From positions 15,797 to 79,796 of the forward strand of contig JBAVVD010000095.1 of NCBI GenBank assembly GCA_049697115.1: a stretch of 64,000 bases of DNA, written 5' to 3'. The notes beneath the pieces were generated by a model. That model had not been told where the DNA came from. It was given only the letters and a program-made list of their open reading frames with translations, and searched no databases. Origin of the DNA: Candidatus Aminicenantales bacterium. GTDB lineage: Bacteria > Acidobacteriota > Aminicenantia > Aminicenantales > UBA4085. Position 1 is the first letter of the stretch. Each line of letters begins with the position of its first letter. This document shows, piece after piece, positions 27,417 through 58,366 of this stretch. A program made the position numbers and the translations under genes.

Positions 27417-27962
27417 ATGTCGAACTCAGTCAAAAAAACCATTTCGTGCCGCCATAAATGGGAAATTGTGAACATGCGCAGCGGATATCTGGTGATTGAG
27501 GGATGTTTCCACTGCCGGAACCGAATTTCTTTCTTTTCGGAAGAGCCGGTTCCTCCCATTGATGATTATCAAGAAGGGGAGCATTTTTGGAGCTACCTGA
27601 GCAGTTATCAGGCATCCAAGTTCGACCTTAAATGCAAAAAATGTGCGAAAGACGTCCGCCTCCCTGACGTTATGGCCATTATGTTGTGTCAAAGTTGTAA
27701 TCCCGAGTGCGGCGTTTTCCAATTGGGCGCGCAGCCGCAGAATCAGAAGGCATGGATCTATGTGGCTCTCTGCGCGAATTCCTCTCATGCATCCGGACAC
27801 TGTATCTCGACAGAAGGGATTCATGCCTTGAACGAATATTTCAATTACGGTCTGCGAGATCCTTTAAAGAAAATCATCGTTGCCCCCTGCCGGCTGCGCA
27901 AATCCGTCGATACATGTCATGGAATTATTCTCGCGGATGTCGGATTGACAGAGTTATATTGA
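27417..27962 (+). CDS. Cysteine-rich hypothetical protein (two zinc-ribbon-like CxxC pairs)
   Basis: CRHKW…CFHCRN and CKKCAK…CQSCNPEC. No family assignment. Confidence 0.35.
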   Translation: MSNSVKKTISCRHKWEIVNMRSGYLVIEGCFHCRNRISFFSEEPVPPIDDYQEGEHFWSYLSSYQASKFDLKCKKCAKDVRLPDVMAIMLCQSCNPECGVFQLGAQPQNQKAWIYVALCANSSHASGHCISTEGIHALNEYFNYGLRDPLKKIIVAPCRLRKSVDTCHGIILADVGLTELY

Positions 27963-28092: not shown

Positions 28093-28419
28093 ATGAAAAT
28101 CTCCGAACTTGTCGAAAAGGCCGGCCTCAAGGCATTTAACGAATCCAGCGATAAGGACATCCTTGGAGTTTACATCTCCGATATGGTGAGTGACATCATC
28201 AACATCACGGAAGGAAATCTGCTGGTGACCTTGCAGATGCACAAGAATATCATTGCGGCGGCAAATCTTGTCGATGTCGCGGCCATCGTATTTTGCCGGA
28301 GCAAGACGCCGCCAGACGATGTGGTCGCGCTCGCCAATAAAGCCGGTATCGAGTTACTGGGATTCGACGGAGACACCTGGACGCTGGCGAAGAAGCTTTA
28401 TGAGCTCGGATTAAGGTAG
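28093..28419 (+). CDS. Small DRTGG-domain-like protein (accessory protein typical of hydrogenase/NuoEF-type operons)
   Basis: 108 aa. The pattern …GNLLVTLQMHKNIIAAANLVDVAAIVFCRSKTPPDDVVALANKAGIELLGF resembles DRTGG-domain proteins. A paralogue sits at 33449-33793. Confidence 0.4.
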   Translation: MKISELVEKAGLKAFNESSDKDILGVYISDMVSDIINITEGNLLVTLQMHKNIIAAANLVDVAAIVFCRSKTPPDDVVALANKAGIELLGFDGDTWTLAKKLYELGLR

Positions 28420-28492: not shown

Positions 28493-31003
28493 ATGGCGCG
28501 AACAGAACCACGAACACTGGCAATGATGATGAACCACCGAAAGGTGTATTTTCCGGAAGGCGTCACCGTCCTCCGGACGGCCGAGCTGAACGGCGTGGAC
28601 ATTCCCTCTCTCTGTTCCCACAAAGATCTTTCCCCCTACGGCGGATGCCGATTGTGTATGGTGGAAATCGAGGGAATGCGCGGCTATCCTTTAGCCTGCA
28701 ACACGATAGCTCAGGAAGGAATGAAAGTCCTGACAGATACAGATATGCTGCGGGAACTCCGGAAAGAAATCTTGAAACTTATCCTCTGCGAGCATCCCTC
28801 GAGCTGCCTGGTGTGCGGAGAAAAAACCGAGTGTCAGGATTATCAAGGAACGATCCGGAAGACCGGCGTAACGACGGCGTGTCGATTTTGCCCAAATGAC
28901 GGCCAATGCGAACTGCAGAGCCTGGTTGAAAAAATCGGTGTGACGGAAATCGACCATCCCATACTTTATCATGGCTATGAGCCTGAGCACGACGATCCCT
29001 TTTACGACAGGGACTACAATATCTGTATTCTCTGCGGCCGGTGTGTTCGGATGTGTCAGGAAGTTCGGGGGACCGCGGTGCTTGCCTTCACCTCGCGGGG
29101 TCCTCAGGTCAAGATTGCCCCGGCCTTTGGCCGAAGCCATCGGGAAGCGGGATGCGAATTCTGCGGGGCATGCGTGGATGTCTGCCCGACAGGCGCCCTT
29201 GTGGATAAGGCCTCCAAGTGGGACGGCCGGCCGGATGGATTTCATGTTTCCACATGTCCGTTCTGTGCGCTGGGATGTCAGATTGAGCTGTTTTATAAAA
29301 ACCGCAGGCTGTCCAAAGCCAAAGCCCATATGGATCCGGAAGTCAATGACGGACAGCTCTGTGTGAAAGGACGCTTCTGTCTGCCGGAAGTCACTCACCA
29401 TTTCGAACGGGCAAAAAAGCCCATGCTCCAAAAAGGGGATTATTTCCGGGAAGTCTCCTGGGAGGAAGCCTTGGAAAAAGTGGCCGAAGAGCTCAAAGGA
29501 ATTCAATCGGATGAGTTTCTCATGCTGGTTTCTCCGGATCTCACCAACGAGAGTTTGTATGCCGCTCAAAAATTCGTTCGGGACGGCCTGGAAAGTCCGA
29601 ACATCGACTCCACGGCGAGACTGGAACTTGCAGGCGGATTGGGATTTTGGTCAAAACTGTTCTCATTGCCCATCTCCATCAAGAATATCGCCAGAGCCGA
29701 TGTGATCCTTGCCGTCGGACTCGACAGCCGGTTCAATTTTTCGGTGGTCGGGACAAAGGTTCGTCGAGCGCTCGATGTGGGTGCCCAATTGGTGACCATC
29801 GATCCTCTCGACAGCAATCTGGCCCGCTATACCGATCACTGGCTCCGTCCTGTGCCGGGCCAGGAAGGACGGCTTCTGAAGTTTTTCGCCGATCGTCTGG
29901 CCGGCCGAAACAACAATCCTTCCTCTGTCGCTCAAGAAACATCCGTGGATATTCCACTTTTGGAACGGGCGTTCGCAATTCTTTCTTCCGGCGACGATTT
30001 GACGGTGATTATCGGCCCCCGGATATTTCATTATGAAAACAGCGAATCTTTCGTGGACGGATTAATGAGCCTGGCCAAACGCCCGAATACGAATTTCATT
30101 CCCCTTTTCTTCGGCGCCAATACGCGCGGGGCCCTTGAGTTGGGCGTATTTCCGGAACTCGGTTCAGATGGAACTTCCCGCTTTGGGAAGGGATCAGGTT
30201 TGTCCGAAATAATCAACGGATCAAAGCGTTATAAAGTGATCTATCTGGTCGGCGATGTCCCGTTTTTTGAAAGGCCGAACTGCGATTTCTTAATCGTTCA
30301 GGATATTTATCTGCCGCCCTTCAAAGTCGATGCATTTCTTCCGGCATCCTCTTTTGCGGAGGCCGGTGGGACTTTTGTGAATATTGAAGGACGGATTCAG
30401 GAGATCGTCCAGATCGAAGATCCGCCCGAAGGCCAGGTAACGGGATTTATGCGTCCCGATTGGCTGATCTTTTCTGAGCTGGCCAATGTTCTCAATGTTC
30501 ATCCGCTGAATTACAAAACTTGGAAGGATGTCTTCAAGGAAATTCAAAAATCCATGCCGAATTTTCCAGAACGGATCAACCGGAAGCCCCGACGGATGAA
30601 CGCTTTCGATGATCCGGCCATCCACAAATCAACCGATGGACAAAAGCCGGACGGAGATTTCTGGATGGTGGCCGAACCGGGCGGCTACCGCCATCGAGGG
30701 ATCGATATCTCGTCGAAAGTCGGAGGTTTGAGCGAATTGGCCCTGGAAGAAGGATTCCGAATGCACCCCGAAGACATCGAGTCCCTTGGTTTGAAAAGCG
30801 GCGATCCGATCACTCTATCGCTCGGCAAGAGTAAGCGGCGCGTCACGGGCACTGTCAAATCAGACATCGAATGTCCGAAAGGGGCAATTTTCTTCTCCCG
30901 GCCAGTTATCTTGGGCGGTCTGAAACATCGACGTGAACTTCTTCCCTTATACATTCTCCAAAAAAATCCGATCCGCGTTCACATCTTGAAGACGGCGACC
31001 TGA
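28493..31003 (+). CDS. NuoG/formate-dehydrogenase-alpha-like Fe-S and molybdopterin-fold subunit lacking the catalytic Sec/Cys-His pair
   Basis: N-terminal 2Fe-2S (CSHKDLSPYGGCRLC), a His-x3-Cx2Cx5C cluster (HPSSCLVCGEKTEC) and two further Cx2Cx2Cx3CP motifs. The FDH-like domain begins TCPFCALGCQIELF…DGQLCVKGRF. At the position aligned to E. coli FdhF …ARVUHGP the sequence is …ARLELAG (no Cys/Sec or His). A C-terminal molybdopterin-dinucleotide-binding-like barrel follows. Confidence 0.7.
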   Translation: MARTEPRTLAMMMNHRKVYFPEGVTVLRTAELNGVDIPSLCSHKDLSPYGGCRLCMVEIEGMRGYPLACNTIAQEGMKVLTDTDMLRELRKEILKLILCEHPSSCLVCGEKTECQDYQGTIRKTGVTTACRFCPNDGQCELQSLVEKIGVTEIDHPILYHGYEPEHDDPFYDRDYNICILCGRCVRMCQEVRGTAVLAFTSRGPQVKIAPAFGRSHREAGCEFCGACVDVCPTGALVDKASKWDGRPDGFHVSTCPFCALGCQIELFYKNRRLSKAKAHMDPEVNDGQLCVKGRFCLPEVTHHFERAKKPMLQKGDYFREVSWEEALEKVAEELKGIQSDEFLMLVSPDLTNESLYAAQKFVRDGLESPNIDSTARLELAGGLGFWSKLFSLPISIKNIARADVILAVGLDSRFNFSVVGTKVRRALDVGAQLVTIDPLDSNLARYTDHWLRPVPGQEGRLLKFFADRLAGRNNNPSSVAQETSVDIPLLERAFAILSSGDDLTVIIGPRIFHYENSESFVDGLMSLAKRPNTNFIPLFFGANTRGALELGVFPELGSDGTSRFGKGSGLSEIINGSKRYKVIYLVGDVPFFERPNCDFLIVQDIYLPPFKVDAFLPASSFAEAGGTFVNIEGRIQEIVQIEDPPEGQVTGFMRPDWLIFSELANVLNVHPLNYKTWKDVFKEIQKSMPNFPERINRKPRRMNAFDDPAIHKSTDGQKPDGDFWMVAEPGGYRHRGIDISSKVGGLSELALEEGFRMHPEDIESLGLKSGDPITLSLGKSKRRVTGTVKSDIECPKGAIFFSRPVILGGLKHRRELLPLYILQKNPIRVHILKTAT

Positions 31004-31063
31004 AAAATAAGAATATATATTCATGGAAACGCGATGGGTTCGGCCGATGGATGGAGGACAGGA

Positions 31064-31897
31064 ATGTATGAAATCATTGAACGACGGATGATTGTTCCGA
31101 ATTTGCACGAATTCAAAGTGAAGGCTCCGGCCGTTGCCGAAACCGTGAAACCCGGCCACTTCATCATCGTCCGGGCGGATCAATATGGCGAGCGTATTCC
31201 TTTGTCCGTCGCGGACTGGGATCAGGAAGCCGGCACGGTGACATCCATTTTTATGCAGGTGGGCGGATCCACCGGCAAGCTGGCTCGTCTGAAATCCGGC
31301 GATACCATTCCAACATATGTTGGGCCTTTGGGGAAAGAAACCGTGATCGATAATTTCGGCACGGTTCTTTGCATCGGCGGATGCTACGGGATCGGATCGA
31401 TCTACCCCATCGCACGGGCGCTGAAGGAAGCCGGGAATAAAGTTTATGTCCTGCTGGAAGCCCGAAGTTCGTTTCTCCTGTACTGGCAGAAGAGGTTCAC
31501 CGGAGTCTCGGATGAAGTATTTGTTATCACCCGGGATGGCACTGCGGGGGAAAAAGGTCATGTGAGCAAGATCCCTGAGTTGATTGAACACGCAGGAATC
31601 ATTCCCCATCTGGTCATCGTGAACGGGTGCACGTTCCTGATGATGCGGGTTTCTCAGGTGACAAAGCCTTTTGGATGGAAAACGATCGTCAATATGAATC
31701 CGATAATGATCGATGGAACGGGGATGTGCGGAGTCTGTCGACTCTCGGTCGGAGGAAAAATGAAGTTCGCCTGCGTCGATGGGCCCGATTTTAACGGCCA
31801 TGAAATCGATTGGGCAGAATTCCTGGCGCGGCGCAAGAGTTACAACCCGGAAGAGGTCGATCCGCTCCGCCGTTCGAGCTGCCGGTCTCATTTCTGA
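31064..31897 (+). CDS. NfnA/SudB/PyrK-like FAD plus 2Fe-2S oxidoreductase subunit
   Basis: Ferredoxin-NADP-reductase-like fold with C-terminal CGVCRLSVGGKMKFACVDGPDF. Start placed at ATG 31064 after a GGAGG RBS (track ORF begins at 31034). Confidence 0.7.
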   Translation: MYEIIERRMIVPNLHEFKVKAPAVAETVKPGHFIIVRADQYGERIPLSVADWDQEAGTVTSIFMQVGGSTGKLARLKSGDTIPTYVGPLGKETVIDNFGTVLCIGGCYGIGSIYPIARALKEAGNKVYVLLEARSSFLLYWQKRFTGVSDEVFVITRDGTAGEKGHVSKIPELIEHAGIIPHLVIVNGCTFLMMRVSQVTKPFGWKTIVNMNPIMIDGTGMCGVCRLSVGGKMKFACVDGPDFNGHEIDWAEFLARRKSYNPEEVDPLRRSSCRSHF

Positions 31898-31935: not shown

Positions 31936-33354
31936 GTGAGTGAGGAAAAACAGGAAAAGAAAAAATTGGATCTGAATCGTCGGTCCATGCCGAAACAGAA
32001 TCCATGGGAGCGGGTCAAGAATTTTGACGAAGTCGCCCTGGGATACTCCGCCGCGGTCGCTGTGGAAGAAGCCCGTCGCTGTTTGCAATGTCCGAAGCCG
32101 CTCTGCAATCAAGGGTGTCCAGTAGGGATTGATATCCCCGCATTCATTAAATGTATTGTCGACGGGGACTTCGGCTCCGGAATCAAAAAAATCAAGGAGA
32201 CCAATGCCCTTCCGGCGATTTGCGGCCGGGTCTGTCCTCAAGAAGAGCAGTGCGAAAAGACGTGCGTCCTGGCCAAAAAGAAGGCCCCGATCGCCATCGG
32301 CCGGCTGGAGCGGTTTCTTGCCGATTGGGAAGCGGCGGAAGGAAAAATCGAAGTTCCGGATATGGCTCCCAAAACCGGGAAGAAGGTAGCTGTCGCCGGA
32401 GCGGGCCCCGCAGGCATAACCGTCGCCAACGACCTCATCATCCTCGGACATGATGTGACCATCTTCGAAGCTCTGCATGAATGCGGCGGCGTCTTGATTT
32501 ACGGCATTCCGGAGTTCAGGCTTCCCAAAGCCATCGTGAACCGTGAAGTGGAATACGTCAAGAGCCTGGGAGTGAAAATCCATACGGATTTCGTCGTGGG
32601 AAAAACCAAGTCCGTCGACCGACTCCTTGAGGAATACGATGCCCTCTTTATCGGCTCGGGCGCCGGACTTCCCTGGTTCATGGAAATCCCCGGCGAAAAC
32701 CTCAATGGCGTCTTTTCGGCCAACGAATACCTCACCCGGGTGAATTTGATGAAGGGTTTTCGATTTCCGGAGTATGAGACGCCCGTGAAACGTCCCCCTC
32801 GAGTGGCGGTTATCGGAGGCGGTAACGTGGCCATGGACTCGGCGCGAACAGCCGTCCGGCTGGGCGCTGATGAGGCCCATTTGGTCTACCGCCGCAACAA
32901 GACGGAATTGCCCGCGCGCGCCGAGGAAGTGGAGAATGCGGAAGAAGAAGGAGTGATTTTCGATCTTCTCACATTGCCTGTGCGTCTCATCGGCGATGCC
33001 AACGGCTGGATCAAAGAGATGGAATGCCTGAAAATGGAATTGGGGGAACCCGATGAATCGGGACGGCGAAGACCGGTTCCCATTAAAGGGTCAAATTTTC
33101 TCATGCCGTTTGATGCGGTCGTCATCGCCATCGGTAACAGCCCGAATCCGATGATTCCCATGACCACTCCTGGATTGGAGATCAGCAAAAAAGGGGGCAT
33201 CGTGACTCATCCGGAGACGGCCCGGACCTCAAGACCAGATATCTGGGCCGGCGGGGATATTGTCAGAGGCGCGGCGACGGTGATCAGCGCGATGGGTGAT
33301 GGGAGGATTGCCGCGTCATCCATACATAAATGTCTCATAAACAAAGGAATTTAG
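31936..33354 (+). CDS. NfnB/SudA/GltD-like NAD(P)H-dependent oxidoreductase subunit (2x[4Fe-4S] + FAD + NAD(P)-binding)
   Basis: CLQCPKPLCNQGCPVGIDIP and CGRVCPQEEQCEKTC clusters, then GxGxxG VAVAGAGPAGI and a second dinucleotide fold. Probable GTG start at 31936 after GAGGAGG (track ORF begins at 31810 and overlaps nfnA). Confidence 0.8.
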   Translation: MSEEKQEKKKLDLNRRSMPKQNPWERVKNFDEVALGYSAAVAVEEARRCLQCPKPLCNQGCPVGIDIPAFIKCIVDGDFGSGIKKIKETNALPAICGRVCPQEEQCEKTCVLAKKKAPIAIGRLERFLADWEAAEGKIEVPDMAPKTGKKVAVAGAGPAGITVANDLIILGHDVTIFEALHECGGVLIYGIPEFRLPKAIVNREVEYVKSLGVKIHTDFVVGKTKSVDRLLEEYDALFIGSGAGLPWFMEIPGENLNGVFSANEYLTRVNLMKGFRFPEYETPVKRPPRVAVIGGGNVAMDSARTAVRLGADEAHLVYRRNKTELPARAEEVENAEEEGVIFDLLTLPVRLIGDANGWIKEMECLKMELGEPDESGRRRPVPIKGSNFLMPFDAVVIAIGNSPNPMIPMTTPGLEISKKGGIVTHPETARTSRPDIWAGGDIVRGAATVISAMGDGRIAASSIHKCLINKGI

Positions 33355-33448: not shown

Positions 33449-33793
33449 ATGACATTGCACGAGATCAAAGAGATTCTCCAATGTGAGGTTCTTGCCGGAG
33501 AAGAGAATCTTGCGATAGACGTCCAACAGGTCGTGGCCTCAGATGGAATGAGTGAAATCCTGGCGTTTGCCAGATCCAAAGAGCTGATGATTACCGGTCT
33601 GACCAACATCCAATCCATCCGGACGGCGGATGTCGCCGGCGTCAGCGCCGTCATTTATTGTCGAGGAAAACGTCCCGATAAGGCCGTGATCGAATATGCC
33701 AAAAAGAAAGCGATTCCGATCCTGATGACGAAGATGGTCATGTTTGATATCTGCGGAATTCTTTATGCCAGAGGCCTCAAGGGCGTCTCATAA
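33449..33793 (+). CDS. Small DRTGG-domain-like protein (second copy)
   Basis: MTLHEIKEILQCEVLAGEENL…MITGLTNIQSIRTADVAGVSAVIYCRGKRPDKAVIEYAKKKAIPIL is colinear with the 28093 protein. Start chosen at the internal ATG with a GGAG RBS (track ORF begins at 33377). Confidence 0.4.
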   Translation: MTLHEIKEILQCEVLAGEENLAIDVQQVVASDGMSEILAFARSKELMITGLTNIQSIRTADVAGVSAVIYCRGKRPDKAVIEYAKKKAIPILMTKMVMFDICGILYARGLKGVS

Positions 33794-34230
33794 TGGTCAT
33801 GGAACTACTACGAGAACGATTCGAAATTCAGGGAAGGAATTTCGATAAGGCCGGCGAGATCGCCACCGAAATCAAAGTGATTCTTAAAGATCTCGGCATT
33901 CACGCCGCGAATATCCGGCGTTCCGTGGTCGTGGCGTTTGAGGCCGAGATGAATGTGGTCATGTTTGCCGACCGGGGAACACTGACCCTCATCCTGACCG
34001 ATGAAGAAGTCTGCCTGGAGATTACAGACGAGGGGCCGGGAATCCCGGACATTGAGCTGGCGTTTCAGCCCGGATATTCCACGGCCTCAGACGAAATGCG
34101 CTTAATGGGTTTTGGCTTTGGTATGGGACTGCCGAATATGAAAAAGAACTCCGACGCGTTTCAAATCGAATCAGAGGTAGGAAAGGGGACGTCGGTCTTT
34201 GCCAGAATAAAATTAAATGCCAATGACTGA
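33793..34230 (+). CDS. Histidine-kinase-like ATPase (anti-sigma-factor/Ser-kinase-like, HATPase_c) small protein
   Basis: G1 box EITDEGPGIPD and G2-like GFGFGMGLP. About 145 aa, as in accessory genes of NADH-dependent hydrogenase operons. Confidence 0.6.
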   Translation: MVMELLRERFEIQGRNFDKAGEIATEIKVILKDLGIHAANIRRSVVVAFEAEMNVVMFADRGTLTLILTDEEVCLEITDEGPGIPDIELAFQPGYSTASDEMRLMGFGFGMGLPNMKKNSDAFQIESEVGKGTSVFARIKLNAND

Positions 34231-35512
34231 ATTAAAGCACGGATTTAAAATCGACACGGACAAGTGCACAGGAAGAATGCACTGCATGCGCGCCTGTCCG
34301 ACGCGGGCCATCCGGGTGAAAAACGGCAAAGCGCGTCTGATCCAGGCGCTCTGCATCGACTGCGGCTCATGTCTGCAGGCATGCCCCACGGGAGCCATCA
34401 CGGCAACGACGATCACCTTTGCCGAACTGGACAGGTTTAAGTTCAAGGTTGCGGTGGCCTCGCCAGCGCTGTTCACCCAATTCGGTATCCATATTTCACC
34501 CGCCCAAGTCGGCAGAGCTCTGTTGGACCTTGGATTTGACGCCGTCTGGGAATACGCCGTCGACATTGAGCTGATCGACCAGGCGATTATGGATTCCGTC
34601 AAGAAATGGCCCGGCCCATTTCCCCTGATCTCCAGCTCCTGTCCCGTTGTCGTCCGATTGGTCCAGGTCGCGTACCCCAGTATGGTCGAACAGCTCATTC
34701 CTATCGAATCCCCGCGAGAAATTGCCGGCCGGGAACTGAAACGGAAATACTCCCAGGAGTTGGGCCTGGATCCGGAAGACATTGCCGCGATATATATCAC
34801 GCCCTGCCAGGCTAAAACGATTTCCATCCTTCAACCCGCTGAGGGCGTAGAAAGTTATCTGGATGGATCGGTCGGCATTTCTGAAATTTATAATGACATT
34901 CTTTATAAACTGCGAAAAGATGCGCATAATCAAGAATCCCCGAAAGACTTTTCCATCTCCGGCGAATTGTTTCACGGAGGAGTGATGGAAGGGGAATTTC
35001 CCCGCCTGTCCCGGGAGCATTATCTTCCGCTGACCGGCCTGACGGATATCATTAAAGTTTTCGACGACATTGAAATGGGAAAAATCAGAAATATTGAATT
35101 TTTGGAATGCCATGCCTGCCAGGGGGGATGCATCGGGGGAAACCTGACGGTCGAAAATCTTTATGTGGCGCGCAGCAAAAATCTCCATTTGATCGCCAGT
35201 ATCACGCCGCCCGATTCGACCTTCAAGAATGAGGTTGAACGGCGTTATGCCATTGAAAATTTTTCATTAAGACGACCTTTGAAACCCCGGATCATTGAAG
35301 AGGGCGTCTCGGAACTGCGCGAGCGCGTCACAAGACGAAAGAGAGCGGATGAACTTTTGAAAAGCCTTCCCCTGCTGAATTGCGGCTTGTGCGGCGCCCC
35401 GACGTGCAAGAACCATGCCGAAGACGTGGCCGCTCTCAGGGCGGACTTGAGGGAATGCGTTTTTCTCTCGCCCGACCGGATTGACCAATTGAGAAGAATC
35501 CATAAAAAATAA
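34217..35512 (+). CDS. [FeFe]-hydrogenase H-cluster-domain protein of the putative sensory/regulatory type (HydS-like, no PAS domain)
   Basis: Two N-terminal ferredoxin motifs (CTGRMHCMRACP, CIDCGSCLQACP). H-domain motifs L1 SSSCPVVV (single Cys instead of TSCCPxW), L2 TPCQAK, L3 EFLECHACQGGCIGG. C-terminal Cx2Cx4Cx16C (CGLCGAPTCKNHAEDVAALRADLREC). Confidence 0.75.
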   Translation: MPMTELKHGFKIDTDKCTGRMHCMRACPTRAIRVKNGKARLIQALCIDCGSCLQACPTGAITATTITFAELDRFKFKVAVASPALFTQFGIHISPAQVGRALLDLGFDAVWEYAVDIELIDQAIMDSVKKWPGPFPLISSSCPVVVRLVQVAYPSMVEQLIPIESPREIAGRELKRKYSQELGLDPEDIAAIYITPCQAKTISILQPAEGVESYLDGSVGISEIYNDILYKLRKDAHNQESPKDFSISGELFHGGVMEGEFPRLSREHYLPLTGLTDIIKVFDDIEMGKIRNIEFLECHACQGGCIGGNLTVENLYVARSKNLHLIASITPPDSTFKNEVERRYAIENFSLRRPLKPRIIEEGVSELRERVTRRKRADELLKSLPLLNCGLCGAPTCKNHAEDVAALRADLRECVFLSPDRIDQLRRIHKK

Positions 35513-36136: not shown

Positions 36137-38005
36137 ATGAGCAGTGATCATCCGAAAATCGACACACGGCCCGGAGGAGACGGCAGGGAGGCGACCCTTG
36201 GGAATAAAATCCGGGTTCTTGTCTGCGAAGGCACCGGATGTGTGTCTTCGAAATCGCCGGACATTCGAGCCGCTCTCGAAAAGGCCGTGCGTCAAATCGG
36301 CTTGAGTGAAAAGATTGAAGTGGGATTTACCGGCTGCCACGGCTTCTGCCAGATAGGCCCTATCGTGGTCGTCGAACCCGAGGGGATTTTCTATTGCAAA
36401 GTGAACCCCAGGGATGCCAAAGATATTGCCGAATCCCACCTCGTCGGCGGGGAACCGGTCAAACGCCTTTTTTACCGCCACCCGGTGACCAAAGAGAGTG
36501 TCCCTTATTATCGGGACATCATGTTCTATAAAAAACAGCAGCGAGTGATCCTGCGCAACTGCGGCAAGATCAACCCGGAAAAAATATCGGATTATGAAGC
36601 TCTGGGCGGTTATCAAGCGCTCCGAAAAGCCGTTCTCAAGATGGGCCCTGAACAGGTTATCGAAGAGGTTCGTCGTTCCGGCCTGCGCGGACGCGGCGGG
36701 GCCGGCTTCCCAACCGGAGTCAAATGGAATTTTTGCCGGAAGCAGCCCGGGGACATCAAGTATGTCATTTGCAATGCCGACGAAGGCGATCCTGGAGCCT
36801 TTATGGATCGCAGTATTCTTGAGGCCGATCCCCATACGGTAATTGAAGGGCTTATTATCCTTGGCTTTGCCATCAACGCCCGCCGGGGTTTTTTCTACTG
36901 CCGCGCGGAATACCCTTTGGCCGTCAAAAGGGTAGGCATCGCCCTTGAGCAGGCGCGCCATAAAGGCTTTCTGGGGAAAAACATCTTCGGATCGGGCTTC
37001 GATTTCGATGTCGAAATATTTGAAGGAGCCGGGGCGTTCGTCTGCGGAGAAGAAACCGCTCTGATCCGTTCCATCGAGGGTTCAAGGGGAATGCCGCGCA
37101 GCCGCCCGCCCTTTCCGGCCGAAAAAGGACTCTGGGGGAGGCCCACTGTCATCAACAACGTCAAGACTCTGGCTTCCGTCCCCGTCATTATCAATCAGGG
37201 AGCCGACTGGTTTGCATCCATCGGGACGGAAACCAGTAAAGGAACGGCCGTCTTTGCGCTGACGGGAAAGATCGCCAATTCCGGACTCGTCGAAGTGCCA
37301 ATGGGGGCTCCCCTGTCACACATCATTTACGATATCGGAGGAGGAATTCCTAATAAGAAAACCTTCAAAGCCGTCCAGACCGGCGGGCCGTCGGGAGGAT
37401 GTCTGCCGGCCACACAGCTCGAACTTCCGATTGATTTCGATTCCTTGCAGAAAGCGGGTTCGATGATGGGCTCCGGAGGTCTGGTTGTGATGGATGATGA
37501 TACGTGCATCGTGGATGTGGCGCGGTTCTTCCTCTCCTTCATCCAGAGCGAATCATGCGGCAAATGCGTCCCCTGCCGGATTGGCACTCGTCTTATGGTG
37601 GACATTTTGGAGAAAATCATGGCCGGAAAGGGAACGGAACAGGACCTGGTGCGACTTGAAAAGCTGGCTAACCTGGTGAAGTTCGGCTCACTCTGCGGCC
37701 TCGGACAGACCGCTCCCAATCCCGTCCTCACAGCGCTCCGATACTTCCGGTCCGAATTTATCGCCCATATCGTCGACAAACGATGCCCGGCGGCCGTCTG
37801 CCGCGAACTCGTCACGTTTCGCGTGATTCCAGAACGGTGCACGGGCTGTCAGTTGTGCGTTAAGGTCTGTCCGACGAAAGCCATTTCCGGACCCCGATCT
37901 CAACCGCATAATCTCGACCAGACCAAATGCATCAAATGCCGCGCGTGTTATGAAATTTGTCGGTTCGATGCCATCGCCGGCGAGGCCATCGTCATCGTAT
38001 CTTAG
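36137..38005 (+). CDS. NuoF/HndC-like NAD(P)H-binding flavoprotein subunit with N-terminal 2Fe-2S domain and C-terminal 2x[4Fe-4S]
   Basis: GLRGRGGAGFPTGVKW (FMN/NADH site), the 4Fe-4S N3-type CxxCxxC…C region, and C-terminal CTGCQLCVKVCP / CIKCRACYEICRF ferredoxin motifs. Confidence 0.85.
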   Translation: MSSDHPKIDTRPGGDGREATLGNKIRVLVCEGTGCVSSKSPDIRAALEKAVRQIGLSEKIEVGFTGCHGFCQIGPIVVVEPEGIFYCKVNPRDAKDIAESHLVGGEPVKRLFYRHPVTKESVPYYRDIMFYKKQQRVILRNCGKINPEKISDYEALGGYQALRKAVLKMGPEQVIEEVRRSGLRGRGGAGFPTGVKWNFCRKQPGDIKYVICNADEGDPGAFMDRSILEADPHTVIEGLIILGFAINARRGFFYCRAEYPLAVKRVGIALEQARHKGFLGKNIFGSGFDFDVEIFEGAGAFVCGEETALIRSIEGSRGMPRSRPPFPAEKGLWGRPTVINNVKTLASVPVIINQGADWFASIGTETSKGTAVFALTGKIANSGLVEVPMGAPLSHIIYDIGGGIPNKKTFKAVQTGGPSGGCLPATQLELPIDFDSLQKAGSMMGSGGLVVMDDDTCIVDVARFFLSFIQSESCGKCVPCRIGTRLMVDILEKIMAGKGTEQDLVRLEKLANLVKFGSLCGLGQTAPNPVLTALRYFRSEFIAHIVDKRCPAAVCRELVTFRVIPERCTGCQLCVKVCPTKAISGPRSQPHNLDQTKCIKCRACYEICRFDAIAGEAIVIVS

Positions 38006-38370: not shown

Positions 38371-38446
38371 TGGCTCCTCGGGCAGGACTCGAACCTGCAA
38401 CCTATTGGTTAACAGCCAACCGCTCTGCCAATTGAGCTACCGAGGA
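38371..38446 (-). tRNA. tRNA-Asn (anticodon GTT), CCA encoded
   Basis: Reverse complement folds as a canonical cloverleaf: acceptor TCCTCGG/CCGAGGA, D-arm GCTC-AATTGGCA-GAGC, anticodon stem GTTGG/CCAAT with loop CTGTTAA, T-arm GCAGG-TTCGAGT-CCTGC, discriminator G, then CCA. Very close to E. coli tRNA-Asn. Confidence 0.85.
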
Positions 38447-51338: not shown

Positions 51339-52196
51339 TTATGGCTTTGAAAGGGGCTGGAACTCGTATTTATTGGCCGCTTTCCGGACACGGCCGAAAT
51401 AATGAGCCGAATCGTGCACAAAGGCCATCACCCAGTCTTCCTCAATCGCTTGGTCGTAGAACCGTTTTTTAGTCTTCAGGGTTTCCAGAGGGTAAAGGTC
51501 GTAGCTCATGACATAGGCCAGGCGGACATGGGCCGATGTGGGAACCAGGTCACCGAGATAAAAAAGGACCCTTCCCATGGATTTGATCTTGACGCACTGG
51601 TGATGGGCGGTGTGGCCCGGAGACAGAACAACCTCCACTCCATCGGCGATTTCCGTATCGCCATCAACCAGAAGGAGCTGGCCGGCTTTCTCCAGAGGGA
51701 GAAAATTCTCCCGGATGTAACTGGCCTTGTCCCGCTCATTGGGATTGAGGGCATCCTCCCATTCCCCTTTCTGGATGACATACCGAGCCTGAGGGAAAGT
51801 GGGGACGATTATCCCATCCTCGCCCTTCATCGTGTTCCCGCCGCTGTGGTCAAAATGGAGATGGGTGTTGACGACGAGGTCGATATCTTCCGGCCGGACT
51901 CCGAGCTCGCGGAGAGACGGAACCAGCCCGGGCTCCTGTTCCACGGAATACAGGCCTGAAAACTTCTGGCCGAATTTGGACCCTATGCCTGTTTCAATAA
52001 GAATCAAGTCTTTGGGCGTCCGTATAAGAAGGGAATTCAGAGCCAGCCGGATTCTGTTGGCACTGTCCGAGGGATACTTCTTTTCCCACAGGATTTTGGG
52101 CACAACACCGAACATGGCTCCCCCATCCAGGTGGAAATAACCGTCGCTGATTCCATAGACTTTCAGGTCCCCCAGAGAGAATTCTTCGATTCTCAT
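51339..52196 (-). CDS. MBL-fold metallo-hydrolase
   Basis: HxHxDH motif NTHLHFDHSGGN. Start overlaps the nuoI stop by 4 nt. Confidence 0.7.
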   Translation of the reverse strand: MRIEEFSLGDLKVYGISDGYFHLDGGAMFGVVPKILWEKKYPSDSANRIRLALNSLLIRTPKDLILIETGIGSKFGQKFSGLYSVEQEPGLVPSLRELGVRPEDIDLVVNTHLHFDHSGGNTMKGEDGIIVPTFPQARYVIQKGEWEDALNPNERDKASYIRENFLPLEKAGQLLLVDGDTEIADGVEVVLSPGHTAHHQCVKIKSMGRVLFYLGDLVPTSAHVRLAYVMSYDLYPLETLKTKKRFYDQAIEEDWVMAFVHDSAHYFGRVRKAANKYEFQPLSKP

Positions 52197-52711
52197 TTCA
52201 GGAGTCTGTCAAGGTCGAGCACCAGGTCCGGACGGGAATATTGGGCCAGTTCGATAGTTCCCGTATCCATCCGGATGGCATCCTCCGGACAGGCCTCCAC
52301 GCAGAAACCGCAAAAACAGCACCGGCTGATGTCGATCGTAAACCGGGCGGGATACTTCTGGATTTCGGGGTCAGGATCTTCGACCGCTTCCACATAGATG
52401 CATTCCGAAGGACAGACCGTGACGCAAAGCATGCAGCAGACGCAGCGGGGCTTGCCGTCGTCTCTCTTCATGAGTCGGTGAAGGCTCCTGTGCCTGGAAG
52501 CCAGCTCCTTCTTCTGTTCGGGATACTGAATGGTCACGGCGCCTTTCCTTTTTGTCTTGATGCCGAAGACATTCAGCGTGTGAAAGAACATGTTGACGAA
52601 AAAATGCCTGGCGGTGATCCAGCTTCCCCTGATGAGTTCCAGAAAATATCCGAGTGCTTTGAACATGTTATCTCGCCAATAAAATAATTCCTGTTCCGAT
52701 AATATTGACAA
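52193..52711 (-). CDS. nuoI: NADH-quinone oxidoreductase subunit I
   Basis: Two Cx2Cx2Cx3CP motifs (CVCCMLCVTVCP, CCFCGFCVEACP). Confidence 0.85.
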   Translation of the reverse strand: MSILSEQELFYWRDNMFKALGYFLELIRGSWITARHFFVNMFFHTLNVFGIKTKRKGAVTIQYPEQKKELASRHRSLHRLMKRDDGKPRCVCCMLCVTVCPSECIYVEAVEDPDPEIQKYPARFTIDISRCCFCGFCVEACPEDAIRMDTGTIELAQYSRPDLVLDLDRLLK

Positions 52712-53744
52712 GGCTCAGCGGGACGAGCAGCTTCCAGCCGAGATCCATGAGCTGGTCGTAGCGGAGCCTGGGATAGGTCCACCGGATGAGCACCTGAAGC
52801 CAGCAGAAAAAGAACACCTTAAGATTGAACGCCGCGACTTGAAGCCCCACGACAAGCCATCGGGCCATCAGCCACTCTCCTCCCCAGGGAAAATGAAATC
52901 CGTCAGAACAGAGCCATGGCACCTGCCAGCCTCCGAAAAAGAGCGTTGTCAGAAGCGTGGAGATGATGATGATTTCCATGAAATCCGTCATCATAAAAAG
53001 GCCCCATTTAAGACCTCCGTACTCGGCGAAGAAGCCGATGATTTCCGACTCCCCCTCGGGAAGGTCAAAGGGGACTCTCTTGGTCTCCGCCAGGGCGGCA
53101 AACAGAAAAATGAGGAATCCAAGAGGCTGGAGGAAAATTCCCCACTTGGGGAGGAAGCCAAAGAGCAGGTTTCCTTGCGCCTGAACGATCTGGGAGAGCT
53201 TCAGGGAGGGATATACCATGATCAGCCCGATAAGCGAAAGGCCCAAGGCCACTTCATAGGAAATGAGCTGGGCCGCACCCCGGATTCCGCCCAGAAGAGT
53301 GAACCTGTTGTTGGAAGCCCAGCCGCTGATTATGATGCCGTAGATCCCCAGCGACAGCATGGCCAGCACAAAAAGCAGTCCCACATGAAAGTCCAGAATC
53401 TGGAGAGCGATGGCGCGGCCGCCGATGTGAATCGTGTCGCCGAAAGGAATGGCGGAAATGGTCACAGCCACGAAAAAGAACGATAGGAATGGAGCGAGCG
53501 TATGCAGGAATTTCCTGGAAAAGGTCGGCACAAAATCCTCTTTAAAAATCATTTTAATGGCATCGGCGAACGGCTGAAACAGACCCAGAATGCGAATACC
53601 TAAAATGGAGGCCCGGTTGGCGCCGATGCGGTCCTGAATAACCGCGCTCTCCTTTCTCTCCACCCACGTCAAGTAGAGGGTGAGGGTTAAAAACCAGACC
53701 AGGGCCAGAATGATCTTGATCAGAATGATGACGACGTCAATCAT
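52668..53744 (-). CDS. nuoH: NADH-quinone oxidoreductase subunit H
   Basis: Polytopic membrane protein with conserved NuoH/ND1 blocks (…RIGANRASILG…, GWASNN…). Confidence 0.85.
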   Translation of the reverse strand: MIDVVIILIKIILALVWFLTLTLYLTWVERKESAVIQDRIGANRASILGIRILGLFQPFADAIKMIFKEDFVPTFSRKFLHTLAPFLSFFFVAVTISAIPFGDTIHIGGRAIALQILDFHVGLLFVLAMLSLGIYGIIISGWASNNRFTLLGGIRGAAQLISYEVALGLSLIGLIMVYPSLKLSQIVQAQGNLLFGFLPKWGIFLQPLGFLIFLFAALAETKRVPFDLPEGESEIIGFFAEYGGLKWGLFMMTDFMEIIIISTLLTTLFFGGWQVPWLCSDGFHFPWGGEWLMARWLVVGLQVAAFNLKVFFFCWLQVLIRWTYPRLRYDQLMDLGWKLLVPLSLVNIIGTGIILLAR

Positions 53745-55296: not shown

Positions 55297-55302
55297 TGTC
55301 CG

Positions 55303-56565: not shown

Positions 56566-56569
56566 TTTA

Positions 56570-57043
56570 TTATTCCAGGCTCTTCAGCAGTTGATCTATC
56601 TTTTTTTTATCGAGGTTGCCGTAATAGTCCAAATTAACCATCATGCAGGGAGCCTGCTCACATGCGCCCAGACACTCCACTTCGGAGAGCGTGAATTTCC
56701 GGTCCGCTGTTGTCTCGCCGATCTCAATCCCCAGTTTTTCCTTCAAGTAATCGATGAGCCTCTCGGCTCCAAGAAGCGAACAGCTCAAGTTGGAGCAGAC
56801 CTGAATGTGGTATTTCCCGAGAGGCTTCTGATGAAGCATGGTGTAGAATGTCACCACTTCCCTGATTTGAATCGGCGGAATGCCCATCAGGCGAGCTACC
56901 CATTGTTCTTCTTCCGCGGATATCGATCCCTTTTCCCGCTGGACCAGATGGAGGACAGGGAGAAGCGCCGCTTCCTTTTCCGGATAGCGCGCGACAAGCT
57001 CTTCGACCTTTTTTTTCAATTCCGGAGAATATTCAGGGCTCAT
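56570..57043 (-). CDS. nuoE: NADH-quinone oxidoreductase subunit E
   Basis: CSNLSCSLLGAERL…CLGACEQAP 2Fe-2S signature. Confidence 0.85.
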   Translation of the reverse strand: MSPEYSPELKKKVEELVARYPEKEAALLPVLHLVQREKGSISAEEEQWVARLMGIPPIQIREVVTFYTMLHQKPLGKYHIQVCSNLSCSLLGAERLIDYLKEKLGIEIGETTADRKFTLSEVECLGACEQAPCMMVNLDYYGNLDKKKIDQLLKSLE

Positions 57044-58365: not shown

Positions 58366-58366
58366 T

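What the first reader, a model, noticed from the sequence alone, without database searches (positions are those of the whole stretch)
34217..35512. Short sensory-type [FeFe]-hydrogenase-like protein: L1 motif with a single cysteine and a C-terminal Cx2Cx4Cx16C cluster, flanked by kinase-like and DRTGG-like genes
Read directly: L1 is SSSCP (canonical TSCCPxW, so one Cys is replaced by Ser and the Trp is lost). L2 TPCQAK and L3 ECHACQGGCIGG are intact. The tail carries CGLCGAPTCKNH…(16)…C, which is the extra [4Fe-4S] motif reported for putative sensory (HydS / group C-D) hydrogenases. Here there is no PAS domain. Immediately upstream is a histidine-kinase-like ATPase, and DRTGG-like proteins lie upstream and further upstream (33449-33793, 28093-28419). 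This suggests an H2- or redox-sensing regulatory module embedded in the redox operon rather than a catalytic enzyme.
Basis: partly seen in the sequence, partly recalled or inferred. Interest (0 to 1): 0.6.

Follow-up and report, generated by a model that had tools for sequence, protein, structure and literature searches.

The report
Putative hydrogen-sensing [FeFe] hydrogenase module
This gene encodes an ordinary member of the already described "group D" family of slow, putatively hydrogen-sensing [FeFe] hydrogenases; it sits with a small kinase-like ATPase and two DRTGG proteins inside an operon for an electron-bifurcating NAD(P)H/ferredoxin enzyme.

Summary
ORF 34217-35512 (more likely starting at 34223, 429 aa) has two N-terminal ferredoxin motifs, an H-cluster domain and a C-terminal Cx2Cx4Cx16C cluster, with no PAS domain. 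L1 is SSSCP, so CpI Cys299 is replaced by Ser and the ligand Cys300 is kept.

These are the family norm of M2e / group D [FeFe] hydrogenases (TamHydS type), not a peculiarity. About 150 representative clusters share ISSxCP, [T/S]PCxAK and the C-terminal motif. The group-D glutamates (TamHydS E252 and E289) are conserved here as E260 and E297. The two methionines that flank the H-cluster are replaced by T195 and H299, so L2 and L3 are "intact" only for their cysteines.

Across 81 loci from many phyla, DRTGG, a SpoIIAB-like ATPase and HydS form a near-universal triad. The three are sometimes fused, and they sit next to NuoEF-type (Bfu) bifurcating enzymes of several catalytic types.

The window belongs to a sub-class with these features:
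- It is linked to NuoG-like + NfnAB rather than HydA.
- It has no PHP gene and instead carries a conserved Cys-rich protein.
- The distal ferredoxin motif has only three Cys.

A sensory or regulatory role is the best reading, but it is inferred. Verdict: a new member of a known kind, of moderate interest.

The parts
34217..35512 (+). HydS: group D (M2e) [FeFe]-hydrogenase-like protein, 431 aa as an ORF; the probable true start is ATG 34223 (429 aa)
34265..34300 (+). First ferredoxin motif, C17-TG-R20-MH-C23-MRA-C27-P. The second Cys of the canonical CxxCxxCxxxCP is Arg (codon 34274-34276), so the distal F-cluster has only three Cys ligands
   Evidence: 69/80 of the wider family have Cys; Arg in 108/116 close homologues
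34631..34645 (+). L1 motif S139-S-S141-C142-P143. S141 = CpI C299 / TamHydS A137; C142 = CpI C300, a [4Fe-4S]H ligand
   Evidence: numbering from PMC11803613
34799..34816 (+). L2 motif T195-P-C197-Q-A-K200. T195 = CpI M353 / TamHydS S191
34994..34996 (+). E260 in the 'EGE' stretch, equivalent to TamHydS E252, the proposed group-D proton relay to the azadithiolate amine
   Evidence: 121/121 in the close clade, 55/80 E plus 10 Q in the wide family; PMC10407848
35105..35140 (+). L3 motif E297-C-H299-A-C301-QGG-C305-IGG. E297 = TamHydS E289; H299 = CpI M497 / TamHydS L291
35381..35458 (+). C-terminal Cx2Cx4Cx16C motif (C389, C392, C397, C414), Pfam PF04060; binds the extra [4Fe-4S] cluster typical of groups C and D
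   Evidence: PMC8163306, PMC13104023
33793..34230 (+). 145-aa GHKL ATPase, SpoIIAB/RsbW-like (a serine-kinase-type protein, not a true histidine kinase). N, G1 and G2 boxes are intact; the gene is translationally coupled on both sides
33449..33793 (+). DRTGG protein B (114 aa), immediately upstream of the ATPase; its stop overlaps the ATPase ATG
28093..28419 (+). DRTGG protein A (108 aa). It is the orthologue of the DRTGG that follows HydS in most other loci; here it lies near the head of the operon
27417..27962 (+). Conserved Cys-rich protein of about 181 aa with no Pfam or NCBIfam match. It is found directly upstream of the first DRTGG gene in 12 related loci: 8 of the NuoG-like+NfnAB class, plus L009, L024, L050 and L062
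28493..31003 (+). BfuA/NuoG-like Fe-S subunit (836 aa): 2Fe-2S, 4Fe-4S clusters and a molybdopterin-like domain that lacks the Cys/Sec-His metal-ligand pair
31034..31897 (+). NfnA/SudB-like FAD/[2Fe-2S] subunit (287 aa)
31936..33354 (+). NfnB/GltD-like NADPH flavoprotein. The start is uncertain: the ORF opens at 31810 and homologues are about 470 aa
35538..36038 (+). BfuC/NuoE-like [2Fe-2S] subunit (166 aa)
36137..38005 (+). BfuB/HydB-like NuoF (622 aa) with an extra N-terminal 2Fe-2S domain and a C-terminal 2x[4Fe-4S] domain
   Evidence: 858 bits to 7t2r_B, 798 bits to A. woodii HydB

Best explanation
Identity. The gene encodes a group D (M2e, 'HydS'-type) [FeFe] hydrogenase. It has two N-terminal ferredoxin-type clusters (the distal one with only three Cys), an H-cluster domain and a third C-terminal [4Fe-4S] cluster. 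I put this identity at about 0.95.

Active site. The fast group-A proton pathway is absent: CpI C299/E279/S319/E282/R286 correspond to S141/A123/I161/D126/K130. It is replaced by the group-D glutamates E260 and E297. Both Met around the [2Fe] site are also replaced, by T195 and H299. In the characterised relative TamHydS, features of this kind go with slow turnover, high H2 affinity and inhibitor tolerance.

Most likely function (inferred). The protein binds and slowly oxidises H2. Its redox or conformational state is read out by two obligatory partners encoded beside it: a SpoIIAB-like ATPase / serine-kinase-type protein and small DRTGG proteins. Read-out would occur by phosphorylation or partner switching. 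The output would adjust the activity or assembly of the co-encoded Bfu-type electron-bifurcating enzyme. In this window that enzyme is NuoE/NuoF/NuoG-like plus NfnAB-like, which presumably links NADH, NADPH and ferredoxin. The effect would be to tune electron flow to the ambient H2 level.

Shown here: family membership, conserved ligands and signature residues, operon structure, and a triad that is conserved and sometimes fused.

Inferred: H-cluster insertion, H2 sensing, kinase activity, and the target of regulation.
For: Family membership:
- Domain architecture without PAS.
- Residue-level alignment to solved hydrogenases.
- ISSxCP / [TS]PCxAK / Cx2Cx4Cx16C are shared by almost all of the 150 nearest 50%-identity cluster representatives.
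- All H-cluster and C-terminal Cys are invariant in 80 diverse and 121 close homologues.
- E260 and E297, equivalent to TamHydS E252 and E289, are invariant in the close clade. The numbering offsets are consistent with published TamHydS A137/S191/L291.
- Scores are far below the group A and B1 cut-offs (113 vs 450 bits and 101 vs 406 bits).
- The model is confident and has the hydrogenase fold.

Conserved triad:
- In at least 67 of 77 loci with enough upstream DNA, the ~145-aa ATPase lies directly upstream of HydS (a few more were missed by my distance filter), with a DRTGG gene before it. The loci span Aminicenantes, Planctomycetota, Actinomycetota, Acidobacteriota, Bacteroidales, Bacillota, Atribacterota and others.
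- 11 of 150 representatives are HydS-DRTGG fusions and 1 is an ATPase-HydS fusion.
- The ATPase keeps invariant N/G1/G2 nucleotide-binding boxes over 65 orthologues. Its closest solved relative is SpoIIAB.

Operon:
- Start and stop codons overlap at DRTGG/ATPase/HydS.
- The triad accompanies Bfu operons of different catalytic type: group A HydA in 19 loci, HdrA-like in 10, NuoG-like+NfnAB in 12, BfuA-GltD in 1. This fits an accessory or regulatory part better than a catalytic subunit.

Against: - No experiment on any group D protein shows signalling.
- In TamHydS the C-terminal cluster did not respond to H2 (PMC13104023).
- TamHydS does catalyse H2 turnover, only slowly, so 'sensor' and 'slow enzyme' are not separated.
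- No DNA-binding protein, STAS protein or sigma factor is encoded in the operon, so the output is unknown.
- In this sub-class no other H-cluster protein is encoded in the operon, and the BfuA-like subunit has no catalytic site. That leaves room for HydS being the working hydrogenase module.
- HydE/F/G maturases were not found in the 64-kb window and could not be looked for in the rest of the genome.
- Two of the four proposed group-D proton-path residues differ here: S249 is Met and D265 is Thr.
Confidence: 0.55

Rival explanations
1. HydS is a working catalytic subunit. It docks onto the NuoE/F/G-like + NfnAB-like complex and makes it a slow H2-evolving or H2-oxidising NAD(P)H/ferredoxin-linked hydrogenase. 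This would be analogous to NiFe-HydABCSL, where BfuA lost its H-cluster and separate subunits supply the active site. The ATPase and DRTGG proteins would be assembly or control factors.
For: - The gene lies between nfnB and nuoE in one tightly packed, translationally coupled operon.
- The BfuA-like subunit has no H-cluster domain and no Mo-ligand Cys/His, and no other hydrogenase domain is in the operon.
- The same gene set is kept with a different order in a 78%-identical relative and in 12 loci.
- TamHydS is catalytically competent, though slow (PMC8163306).
- All H-cluster ligands, K200, E260 and E297 are invariant.
Against: - The same triad accompanies operons that already encode a group A HydA (19 loci) or an HdrA-like module (10 loci).
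- Its constant partners are a kinase-like ATPase and DRTGG proteins, not electron-transfer subunits.
- The group A proton pathway is absent.
- The surface-side F-cluster has lost a Cys ligand.
- According to PMC9304861, hisK and hydD of the NiFe-HydABCSL operon are not part of that purified holoenzyme. That paper says nothing about group D HydS.
Confidence: 0.2
2. It is a redox-pool sensor rather than an H2 sensor. The accessory Fe-S clusters (three-Cys distal cluster, C-terminal cluster) report the ferredoxin or NAD(P)H redox state to the kinase/DRTGG pair. The H-cluster site would be secondary, or serve only to equilibrate with H2.
For: - The module is attached to non-hydrogenase bifurcating enzymes (NfnAB-linked, HdrA-like), whose substrates are ferredoxin and pyridine nucleotides.
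- The C-terminal cluster and the charged residues around it are highly conserved (E402, D403; PMC13104023).
- DRTGG domains occur in nucleotide-regulated proteins such as CBS-pyrophosphatases, with weak matches here.
Against: - The four H-cluster Cys, the Lys of L2 and the two group-D glutamates are invariant, which argues that the [2Fe] site is used.
- TamHydS reacts with H2 with high affinity (PMC8163306).
- In TamHydS the C-terminal cluster was redox-unresponsive to H2 and dispensable for activity (PMC13104023). That says little either way about other reductants.
Confidence: 0.15
3. It is a hydrogenase-like Fe-S protein that no longer carries the [2Fe] subcluster (comparable to eukaryotic Nar1/Narf) and acts only as an electron-transfer or scaffold protein.
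For: No hydE/F/G genes in the window. The canonical proton-relay Cys and both Met are lost.
Against: The bridging Cys305, the other ligands, K200 and the proton-relay glutamates are invariant over hundreds of sequences. The characterised family member binds [2Fe]adt and turns over H2 (PMC8163306). Maturase genes are often unlinked from hydrogenase genes (my own knowledge).
Confidence: 0.05

Closest known systems
TamHydS, the group D (M2e) putative sensory [FeFe] hydrogenase of Thermoanaerobacter mathranii
   Same: - Same architecture: 2 ferredoxin motifs + H-domain + Cx2Cx4Cx16C, no PAS.
- C299 position is not Cys; the M353 position carries a hydroxyl residue.
- E252 and E289 are conserved (E260, E297).
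- The group A proton path is absent; K126 corresponds to K130.
- Conserved R30, K35, E392 and D393 correspond to R33, K38, E402 and D403.
- A kinase-like ATPase gene is adjacent, and the gene lies next to a NuoEF-type bifurcating enzyme.
   Different: - Only about 35% identity to a Thermoanaerobacteraceae orthologue (L034). The TamHydS sequence itself was not available.
- Ser rather than Ala at the C299 position; His rather than Leu at M497.
- S249 is Met, D265 is Thr, K58 is Ile, D378 is Asn.
- The second Cys of the first ferredoxin motif is Arg.
- The partner enzyme is NuoG-like + NfnAB, not HydABC.
- There is no PHP gene and no second ATPase; instead there is a Cys-rich 181-aa protein.
TmHydS / RaHydS / TsHfsB, group C (M2f) putative sensory [FeFe] hydrogenases
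   Same: F-domain, H-domain without the C299 relay, and the C-terminal Cx2Cx4Cx16C cluster (PMC8163306).
   Different: Group C proteins carry a C-terminal PAS domain. None is present here, nor in the 10 longer relatives tested, which carry DRTGG or HATPase fusions instead.
Group A [FeFe] hydrogenases (CpI, DdHydAB, HydA of HydABC)
   Same: Same fold (Foldseek TM about 0.65) and the same four H-cluster cysteines and Lys.
   Different: About 20% identity. The proton pathway and both Met are replaced, and there is an extra C-terminal cluster. Scores are below the NCBIfam group A cut-off.
SpoIIAB / RsbW partner-switching serine kinases (comparison for the 145-aa ATPase)
   Same: Same size, a single GHKL domain without a DHp domain, and the best PDB hits (E about 6e-9). 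The nucleotide-binding boxes are conserved.
   Different: 53 bits against a 135-bit cut-off for SpoIIAB. No STAS-domain antagonist or sigma factor is encoded alongside; DRTGG proteins occupy that place.
Regulatory [NiFe] hydrogenase HoxBC-HoxJ of Cupriavidus (functional analogue; from my own knowledge and PMC8163306)
   Same: A low-activity hydrogenase proposed or shown to act as an H2 sensor coupled to a kinase.
   Different: Unrelated metal site and fold. HoxJ is a PAS-containing histidine kinase with a known response regulator.
Bfu family of electron-bifurcating enzymes (HydABC, NfnABC/Stn, NiFe-HydABCSL; PMC9304861)
   Same: The NuoF-like protein matches BfuB end to end (858 bits to 7t2r_B). 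A NuoE-like BfuC and a NuoG-like BfuA are also present.
   Different: Here the NADPH module consists of separate NfnA-like and NfnB-like subunits rather than a GltD domain fused to BfuA. I did not find this composition described in the passages of that paper that I searched.

Membership tests
Group D (M2e) [FeFe] hydrogenase | H-domain (Fe_hyd_lg_C) with the four H-cluster cysteines and the L2 lysine | tested here: met
   Pfam E 1.7e-28. C142, C197, C301, C305 and K200 align to solved enzymes. The four Cys are invariant in 80 relatives; K200 is Lys in 60/80.
Group D (M2e) [FeFe] hydrogenase | [quoted passage not shown] | tested here: inconclusive
   The domain is present, but only 7 of 8 Cys are: the second Cys of motif 1 is Arg. 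The same holds in 108/116 close homologues, whereas 69/80 of the wide family have Cys.
Group D (M2e) [FeFe] hydrogenase | C-terminal Cx2Cx4Cx16C motif | tested here: met
   C389, C392, C397, C414; PF04060.
Group D (M2e) [FeFe] hydrogenase | No PAS domain (this separates D from C) | tested here: met
   No PAS hit at E<=0.01, and the protein ends 17 residues after the last Cys.
Group D (M2e) [FeFe] hydrogenase | CpI C299 not conserved, and the rest of the group A proton pathway missing | tested here: met
   S141, A123, I161, D126 and K130 at the positions of C299, E279, S319, E282 and R286. The 119-157 mapping is read directly from the sequence with a constant offset of +4.
Group D (M2e) [FeFe] hydrogenase | M353 replaced by Ser/Thr | tested here: met
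   T195; the family has T 43 and S 27 of 80.
Group D (M2e) [FeFe] hydrogenase | Alternative proton pathway E252, E289, S249, D265 (TamHydS numbering) | tested here: inconclusive
   E260 and E297 are present and invariant in the clade. S249 is M257 and D265 is T273. The two residues shown by mutagenesis to matter are kept; the two outer ones are not.
Group D (M2e) [FeFe] hydrogenase | Phylogenetic placement with TamHydS (HydDB or a tree) | not tested
   No TamHydS or TmHydS sequence and no HydDB were available. Indirect evidence: the same profile retrieves Thermoanaerobacteraceae orthologues with the TamHydS-type context (L034).
Group D (M2e) [FeFe] hydrogenase | Binds the [2Fe] subcluster; slow, high-affinity H2 turnover | not testable with these tools
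   Needs expression, maturation, FTIR/EPR and activity assays.
Group A / group B [FeFe] hydrogenase | Score above the curated family cut-offs; TSCCPxW and MPCxxK motifs | tested here: not met
   TIGR02512 gives 100.9 bits against 405.95; TIGR04105 gives 113.5 against 450. The motifs differ.
Group C (M2f) sensory [FeFe] hydrogenase | C-terminal PAS domain after the Cx2Cx4Cx16C cluster | tested here: not met
Two-component histidine kinase (neighbouring 145-aa protein) | DHp/HisKA domain with a phospho-accepting His in addition to the ATPase domain | tested here: not met
   Only HATPase_c and HATPase_c_2 were found in 145 aa.
SpoIIAB/RsbW-type serine kinase (neighbouring 145-aa protein) | Stand-alone GHKL domain of about 145 aa with N, G1 and G2 boxes; a STAS-domain substrate | tested here: inconclusive
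   Size, the conserved boxes and the best PDB match agree. The score is below the equivalog cut-off, and no STAS partner is present; DRTGG proteins are there instead.
Bfu-type electron-bifurcating enzyme (the surrounding operon) | BfuB (NuoF with extra 2Fe-2S and 2x4Fe-4S domains) plus BfuC (NuoE-like) core and a BfuA | tested here: met

The most novel reading that the evidence does not exclude
The DRTGG / SpoIIAB-like ATPase / HydS triad is a general H2-responsive post-translational governor of NuoEF-type (Bfu) electron-bifurcating enzymes. It would act not only on hydrogenases but also on NfnAB-linked and HdrA-linked enzymes. The DRTGG proteins, with their near-invariant Thr-Gly-Leu and Asp-x-Met-Ser motifs, would play the role that STAS proteins play for SpoIIAB, as phospho-acceptor or switch partner. 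There would be two flavours: one with a PHP phosphoesterase, and one, as in this window, with a Cys-rich protein instead. This would supply the missing signal-transduction route for PAS-less group D hydrogenases.
Probability: 0.3. Interest if true: 0.7.

Novelty: new member of a known kind. Interest (0 to 1): 0.4.

Why it matters
The protein itself adds one more sequence to a family that is already described and partly characterised.

The value lies in the context. How PAS-less group D hydrogenases would pass on a signal is an open question stated in the TamHydS papers. The comparative data gathered here point to two concrete partners: a SpoIIAB-like ATPase and DRTGG proteins, which are fused to HydS in some lineages. 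They also show that the module is attached to several kinds of bifurcating enzymes. In this window's lineage that enzyme is a NuoG-like + NfnAB-like complex with no hydrogenase subunit.

If H2 level really controls such enzymes, this would be a simple route by which fermenters and syntrophs match NADH/NADPH/ferredoxin balancing to H2 partial pressure. Two clade-specific features are natural variants of interest to people studying how the protein shell tunes the H-cluster:
- Ser and His at the positions of C299 and M497.
- A three-Cys distal cluster.

Tried and rejected
Sequences I could not obtain:
- I looked for the TamHydS sequence in the supplement of PMC8163306 and found none. A search of the PMC13104023 supplement failed on a term that was too short. 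Residue mapping was therefore done from published residue numbers and constant offsets.

- The genome scan with an 80-sequence profile failed because no stretch was conserved enough. It was repeated with 14 sequences.

Checks that came back negative:
- No PHP gene in the 64-kb window (profile search).
- No HydE/F/G. The only sizeable radical-SAM protein (61885-63471) does not match them. The other large ORFs are polysaccharide, complex I and housekeeping genes.
- No Rex operator: two 3-mismatch hits, fewer than expected by chance.
- No riboswitch or other Rfam element; only tRNA-Asn.
- Promoter and terminator scans were at chance level and were not used.
- Formate dehydrogenase was rejected for the 836-aa protein, because the Cys/Sec-His pair is missing.

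Literature: searches for DRTGG + hydrogenase, and for kinase/PHP + bifurcating hydrogenase, found nothing relevant beyond the TamHydS paper.

An idea tested and dropped: I asked whether the Cys-to-Arg change tracks the NfnAB context. It does not. It occurs in several non-Bacillota lineages, with either partner type.
Full report
**1. What is in the sequence**

The ORF at 34217-35512 (+) is real. Homologues are mostly 429 aa and start M-x-ELKH. The ATG at 34223 is therefore the likelier start. It overlaps the TGA of the upstream gene, and the stop of the DRTGG gene overlaps the ATG of that upstream gene (TAATG).

Pfam finds two 4Fe-4S ferredoxin motifs (residues 11-62), the [FeFe]-hydrogenase H-domain (78-308, E 1.7e-28) and the small 'FeS' domain PF04060 (384-416). 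It finds no PAS domain.

HMMER alignments to solved hydrogenases fix the register of the three H-cluster motifs:
- 'PLISSSCPVV' against 'PMFTSCCPAW'
- 'ITPCQAK' against 'VMPCTCK'
- 'FLECHACQGGCIGG' against 'FVEVMTCPEGCISG'

So S141 replaces CpI C299, the proton relay. C142 is the cluster ligand C300. The Trp is Val. CpI M353 is T195 and M497 is H299.

The tail is C389-x2-C392-x4-C397-x16-C414. Calling L2 and L3 'intact' holds only for the cysteines.

One feature was missed. The first ferredoxin motif reads C17-TG-R20-MH-C23-MRA-C27-P, so the second canonical Cys is Arg.

**2. It is a normal member of a large, known family**

A search of 1.84 billion cluster representatives gave 277 clusters at E<=1e-30. 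In the 150 best, L1 is almost always ISSxCP with x never Cys. L2 is [T/S]PCxAK, and the 26-residue Cx2Cx4Cx16C motif is nearly universal.

In an 80-sequence alignment the four H-cluster Cys, the four C-terminal Cys and seven of the eight ferredoxin Cys positions are conserved: six invariant, and C17 in 79 of 80.

This is the M2e subclass / group D of the literature, whose model enzyme is TamHydS (PMC8163306):
- two N-terminal clusters and a C-terminal Cx2Cx4Cx16C motif, without PAS;
- C299 and the rest of the group A proton pathway not conserved;
- M353 replaced by Ser/Thr, and M497 variable.

Published TamHydS residue numbers are A137=C299, S191=M353, L291=M497, E252/E289/S249/D265 for the alternative proton path, and F119/E122/K126/L157 for CpI E279/E282/R286/S319. 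They map onto the window protein with constant offsets (+4, +8, +10):

| TamHydS | Window protein |
|---|---|
| A137 | S141 |
| S191 | T195 |
| L291 | H299 |
| E252 | E260 |
| E289 | E297 |
| S249 | M257 |
| D265 | T273 |
| F119 | A123 |
| E122 | D126 |
| K126 | K130 |
| L157 | I161 |

The mapping rests and on direct reading of the sequence.

The two glutamates shown by mutagenesis to matter in TamHydS are present, and they are invariant in 121 close homologues. The outer two residues of that path are not conserved here.

NCBIfam scores for group A (101 bits against a 406 cut-off) and group B1 (113 against 450) are far below threshold.

An AlphaFold2 model built on the 80-sequence alignment is confident (pLDDT 93.4, pTM 0.92). 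In the PDB it matches only group A/B hydrogenases, at about 20% identity and TM about 0.65. No group C or D structure appears among the hits.

**3. Clade-specific traits**

Among 121 cluster representatives at >=70% identity, several of which sources name as Aminicenantes, the counts are:
- Ser at the C299 position: 116/121
- Thr at the M353 position: 112/121
- His at the M497 position: 104/121
- An extra Cys next to the L3 Glu: 117/121
- Arg in the first ferredoxin motif: 108/116

Loss of that Cys also occurs in Acidobacteriota, Planctomycetota, Ignavibacteria, Bacteroidales and other lineages, and it is independent of the partner enzyme.

By analogy with clostridial-type ferredoxin domains (my own knowledge), this Cys belongs to the cluster farther from the H-cluster. 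That site would then hold a [3Fe-4S] cluster or a cluster with a non-Cys ligand. This is inference.

**4. The neighbours**

The 145-aa upstream protein has only a GHKL ATPase domain. Its best solved relatives are the anti-sigma factor / serine kinase SpoIIAB (E about 6e-9, same length), although it scores below NCBI's SpoIIAB cut-off. Over 65 orthologues the N box (E-x-E-x-N), G1 (DxGxG) and G2 (GFGxGMGLPN) are essentially invariant. It is most likely a working nucleotide-binding protein, and it is not a canonical histidine kinase.

The proteins at 33449-33793 and 28093-28419 are DRTGG-domain proteins. The DRTGG orthologues upstream of the ATPase share near-invariant D32, M34-S35, T49-G50-L51, R58-T59 and R72-G73-K74-x-P76.

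**5. Comparative context**

A profile scan of one genome per species returned 80 loci from many phyla. I called ORFs in them and searched them with iterated HMMs built from the window's proteins.

In at least 67 of 77 loci with enough upstream DNA, the ATPase lies directly upstream of HydS; a few more were missed by my distance filter. A DRTGG gene comes before it.

Gene fusions give independent support. Of the 150 representatives, 11 are HydS-DRTGG fusions (9 C-terminal, 2 N-terminal) and one is an ATPase-HydS fusion. None of the ten long forms scanned has PAS.

The usual continuation, in Bacillota, Acidobacteriota and others, is:
- a second DRTGG gene;
- a PHP-domain protein (Pfam; present in 50 of 69 loci with enough downstream DNA);
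- then NuoE, a second ATPase of about 180 aa, a small Fe-S protein and NuoF;
- then either a group A HydA (19 loci) or a 2Fe-2S + HdrA-like protein (10 loci).

The window belongs to a second class of 12 loci, from Aminicenantes, Planctomycetota, Thermoleophilia, Bacteroidales and one unclassified MAG. In this class:
- The partner is NuoE, NuoF, a NuoG-like protein of 770-870 aa, and NfnA-like and NfnB-like subunits.
- There is no PHP and no second ATPase.
- A conserved Cys-rich protein of about 180 aa, with no family match, heads the cluster. In the window it lies at 27417-27962 and is 71% identical to L001:1044-1586.

In a 78%-identical relative the same genes occur in a different order and are followed by a membrane-bound group 4 [NiFe] hydrogenase cluster.

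The window's NuoF-like protein matches BfuB/HydB subunits end to end (858 bits to 7t2r_B). The NuoG-like protein aligns to formate dehydrogenase alpha subunits, but it has a gap and Glu where the Mo-ligand Cys and His sit. It is therefore an electron-transfer subunit, not a formate dehydrogenase.

The operon is thus a Bfu-type enzyme with an NfnAB-like NADPH module. The HydS triad is inserted between nfnB and nuoE.

**6. How it most likely works**

Shown here:
- family membership;
- conservation of all metal ligands and of the group-D glutamates;
- tight operon organisation;
- an evolutionarily conserved and sometimes fused triad;
- association with bifurcating enzymes of different catalytic types.

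Established elsewhere: TamHydS binds the [2Fe] cofactor, turns over H2 slowly with high affinity, and tolerates CO and O2 (PMC8163306).

Inferred: the protein reports H2 (or the redox state it sets) to the SpoIIAB-like ATPase and the DRTGG proteins, and these adjust the neighbouring Bfu enzyme.

The argument for an accessory or regulatory role rests on two points. The same triad accompanies operons that already have a catalytic HydA, and it accompanies operons that have no hydrogen chemistry at all.

The main rival is that in this sub-class HydS is the working hydrogenase module of the Bfu-Nfn complex. This cannot be excluded, because the operon contains no other H-cluster protein.

Two further points count against a simple picture. 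The C-terminal cluster of TamHydS did not respond to H2 (PMC13104023). And no output domain (DNA-binding, STAS, sigma factor) is encoded nearby.

**7. Novelty**

The protein class, its motif pattern, the missing PAS domain and the adjacent kinase-like ATPase are all published. The finding is a new member of a known kind.

Three things I did not find in the searchable literature:
- the regular presence of DRTGG proteins (and PHP, or the Cys-rich protein) in the module;
- the fusions;
- the attachment to NfnAB-linked and HdrA-like Bfu enzymes.

One genomic study does note sensory hydrogenases next to BfuABC genes, and HATPase_c fused to 'C1' hydrogenases (PMC11406978).

These points make the signalling question more testable. 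They come from the comparative work, not from anything unique to this window.

Noticed in passing
window 34274-34276 (codon R20 of HydS): The second Cys of the first ferredoxin motif is Arg (CxGRMxCMRACP). This is conserved in 108/116 close homologues and recurs in several non-Bacillota lineages, whereas 69/80 of the wider family have Cys. It implies a three-Cys cluster site, possibly [3Fe-4S].
   Followed up: partly
window 27417-27962 (+): A Cys-rich protein of about 181 aa with no Pfam or NCBIfam match. It is conserved directly upstream of the first DRTGG gene in 12 related loci and is 71% identical in L001. It occurs in loci that lack the PHP gene; the only exception is L018, which has two HydS copies.
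   Followed up: partly
window 28493-31003 (+): The NuoG/FdhA-like 836-aa protein has a molybdopterin-like domain, but it lacks the Cys/Sec-His metal-ligand pair ('ARL-ELAGG' against 'ARVCHSPTG'). It is therefore not a formate dehydrogenase.
   Followed up: yes
window ~52193-59304 (-): A separate complex I-type gene row (NuoB, C, D, E, F, G, H and a ferredoxin-like NuoI). The window therefore holds two different NuoE/F/G sets. The complex I NuoF is 420 aa, without the extra Fe-S domains of the 622-aa BfuB-type protein.
   Followed up: partly
L034:15695-17440, L035:15761-17485 and other group A HydA genes in related loci: The bifurcating-type HydA proteins next to HydS have L1 = 'TSCSPGW', i.e. 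Cys-Ser where CpI has Cys-Cys. The same appears in the A. woodii HydA1 chain 7q4v_A. I did not resolve how this fits the usual assignment of C300 as the cluster ligand.
   Followed up: no
L012, L013, L014, L016, L017, L019, L020, L021, L029, L051 (for example L016:15866-17629): In these loci the HydS module and NuoE/NuoF are followed by a protein of about 587 aa that fuses a NuoG-type 2Fe-2S/4Fe-4S N-terminus to an HdrA-like flavoprotein ('CSRVCCMY'). This looks like another Bfu-type enzyme with no hydrogenase domain.
   Followed up: partly
L001:11431-21290: In the 78%-identical relative, the HydS gene is followed directly by a membrane-bound group 4 [NiFe] hydrogenase / Mrp-like cluster and HycI. 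This links the module to H2 metabolism in that genome.
   Followed up: no
proteins P0130, P0204, P0143, P0148, P0184, P0233, P0160, P0171, P0198, P0203, P0264, P0163: Natural fusions of HydS with a DRTGG domain (N- or C-terminal) or with the HATPase domain (P0163).
   Followed up: yes
window 61885-63471 (-): A 528-aa radical-SAM protein. Its best, weak matches are to tungsten-cofactor and SPASM-type maturases, not to HydE/HydG.
   Followed up: partly
window 38371-38446 (-): A tRNA-Asn (GTT) gene lies just downstream of nuoF on the opposite strand and marks the end of the operon.
   Followed up: yes
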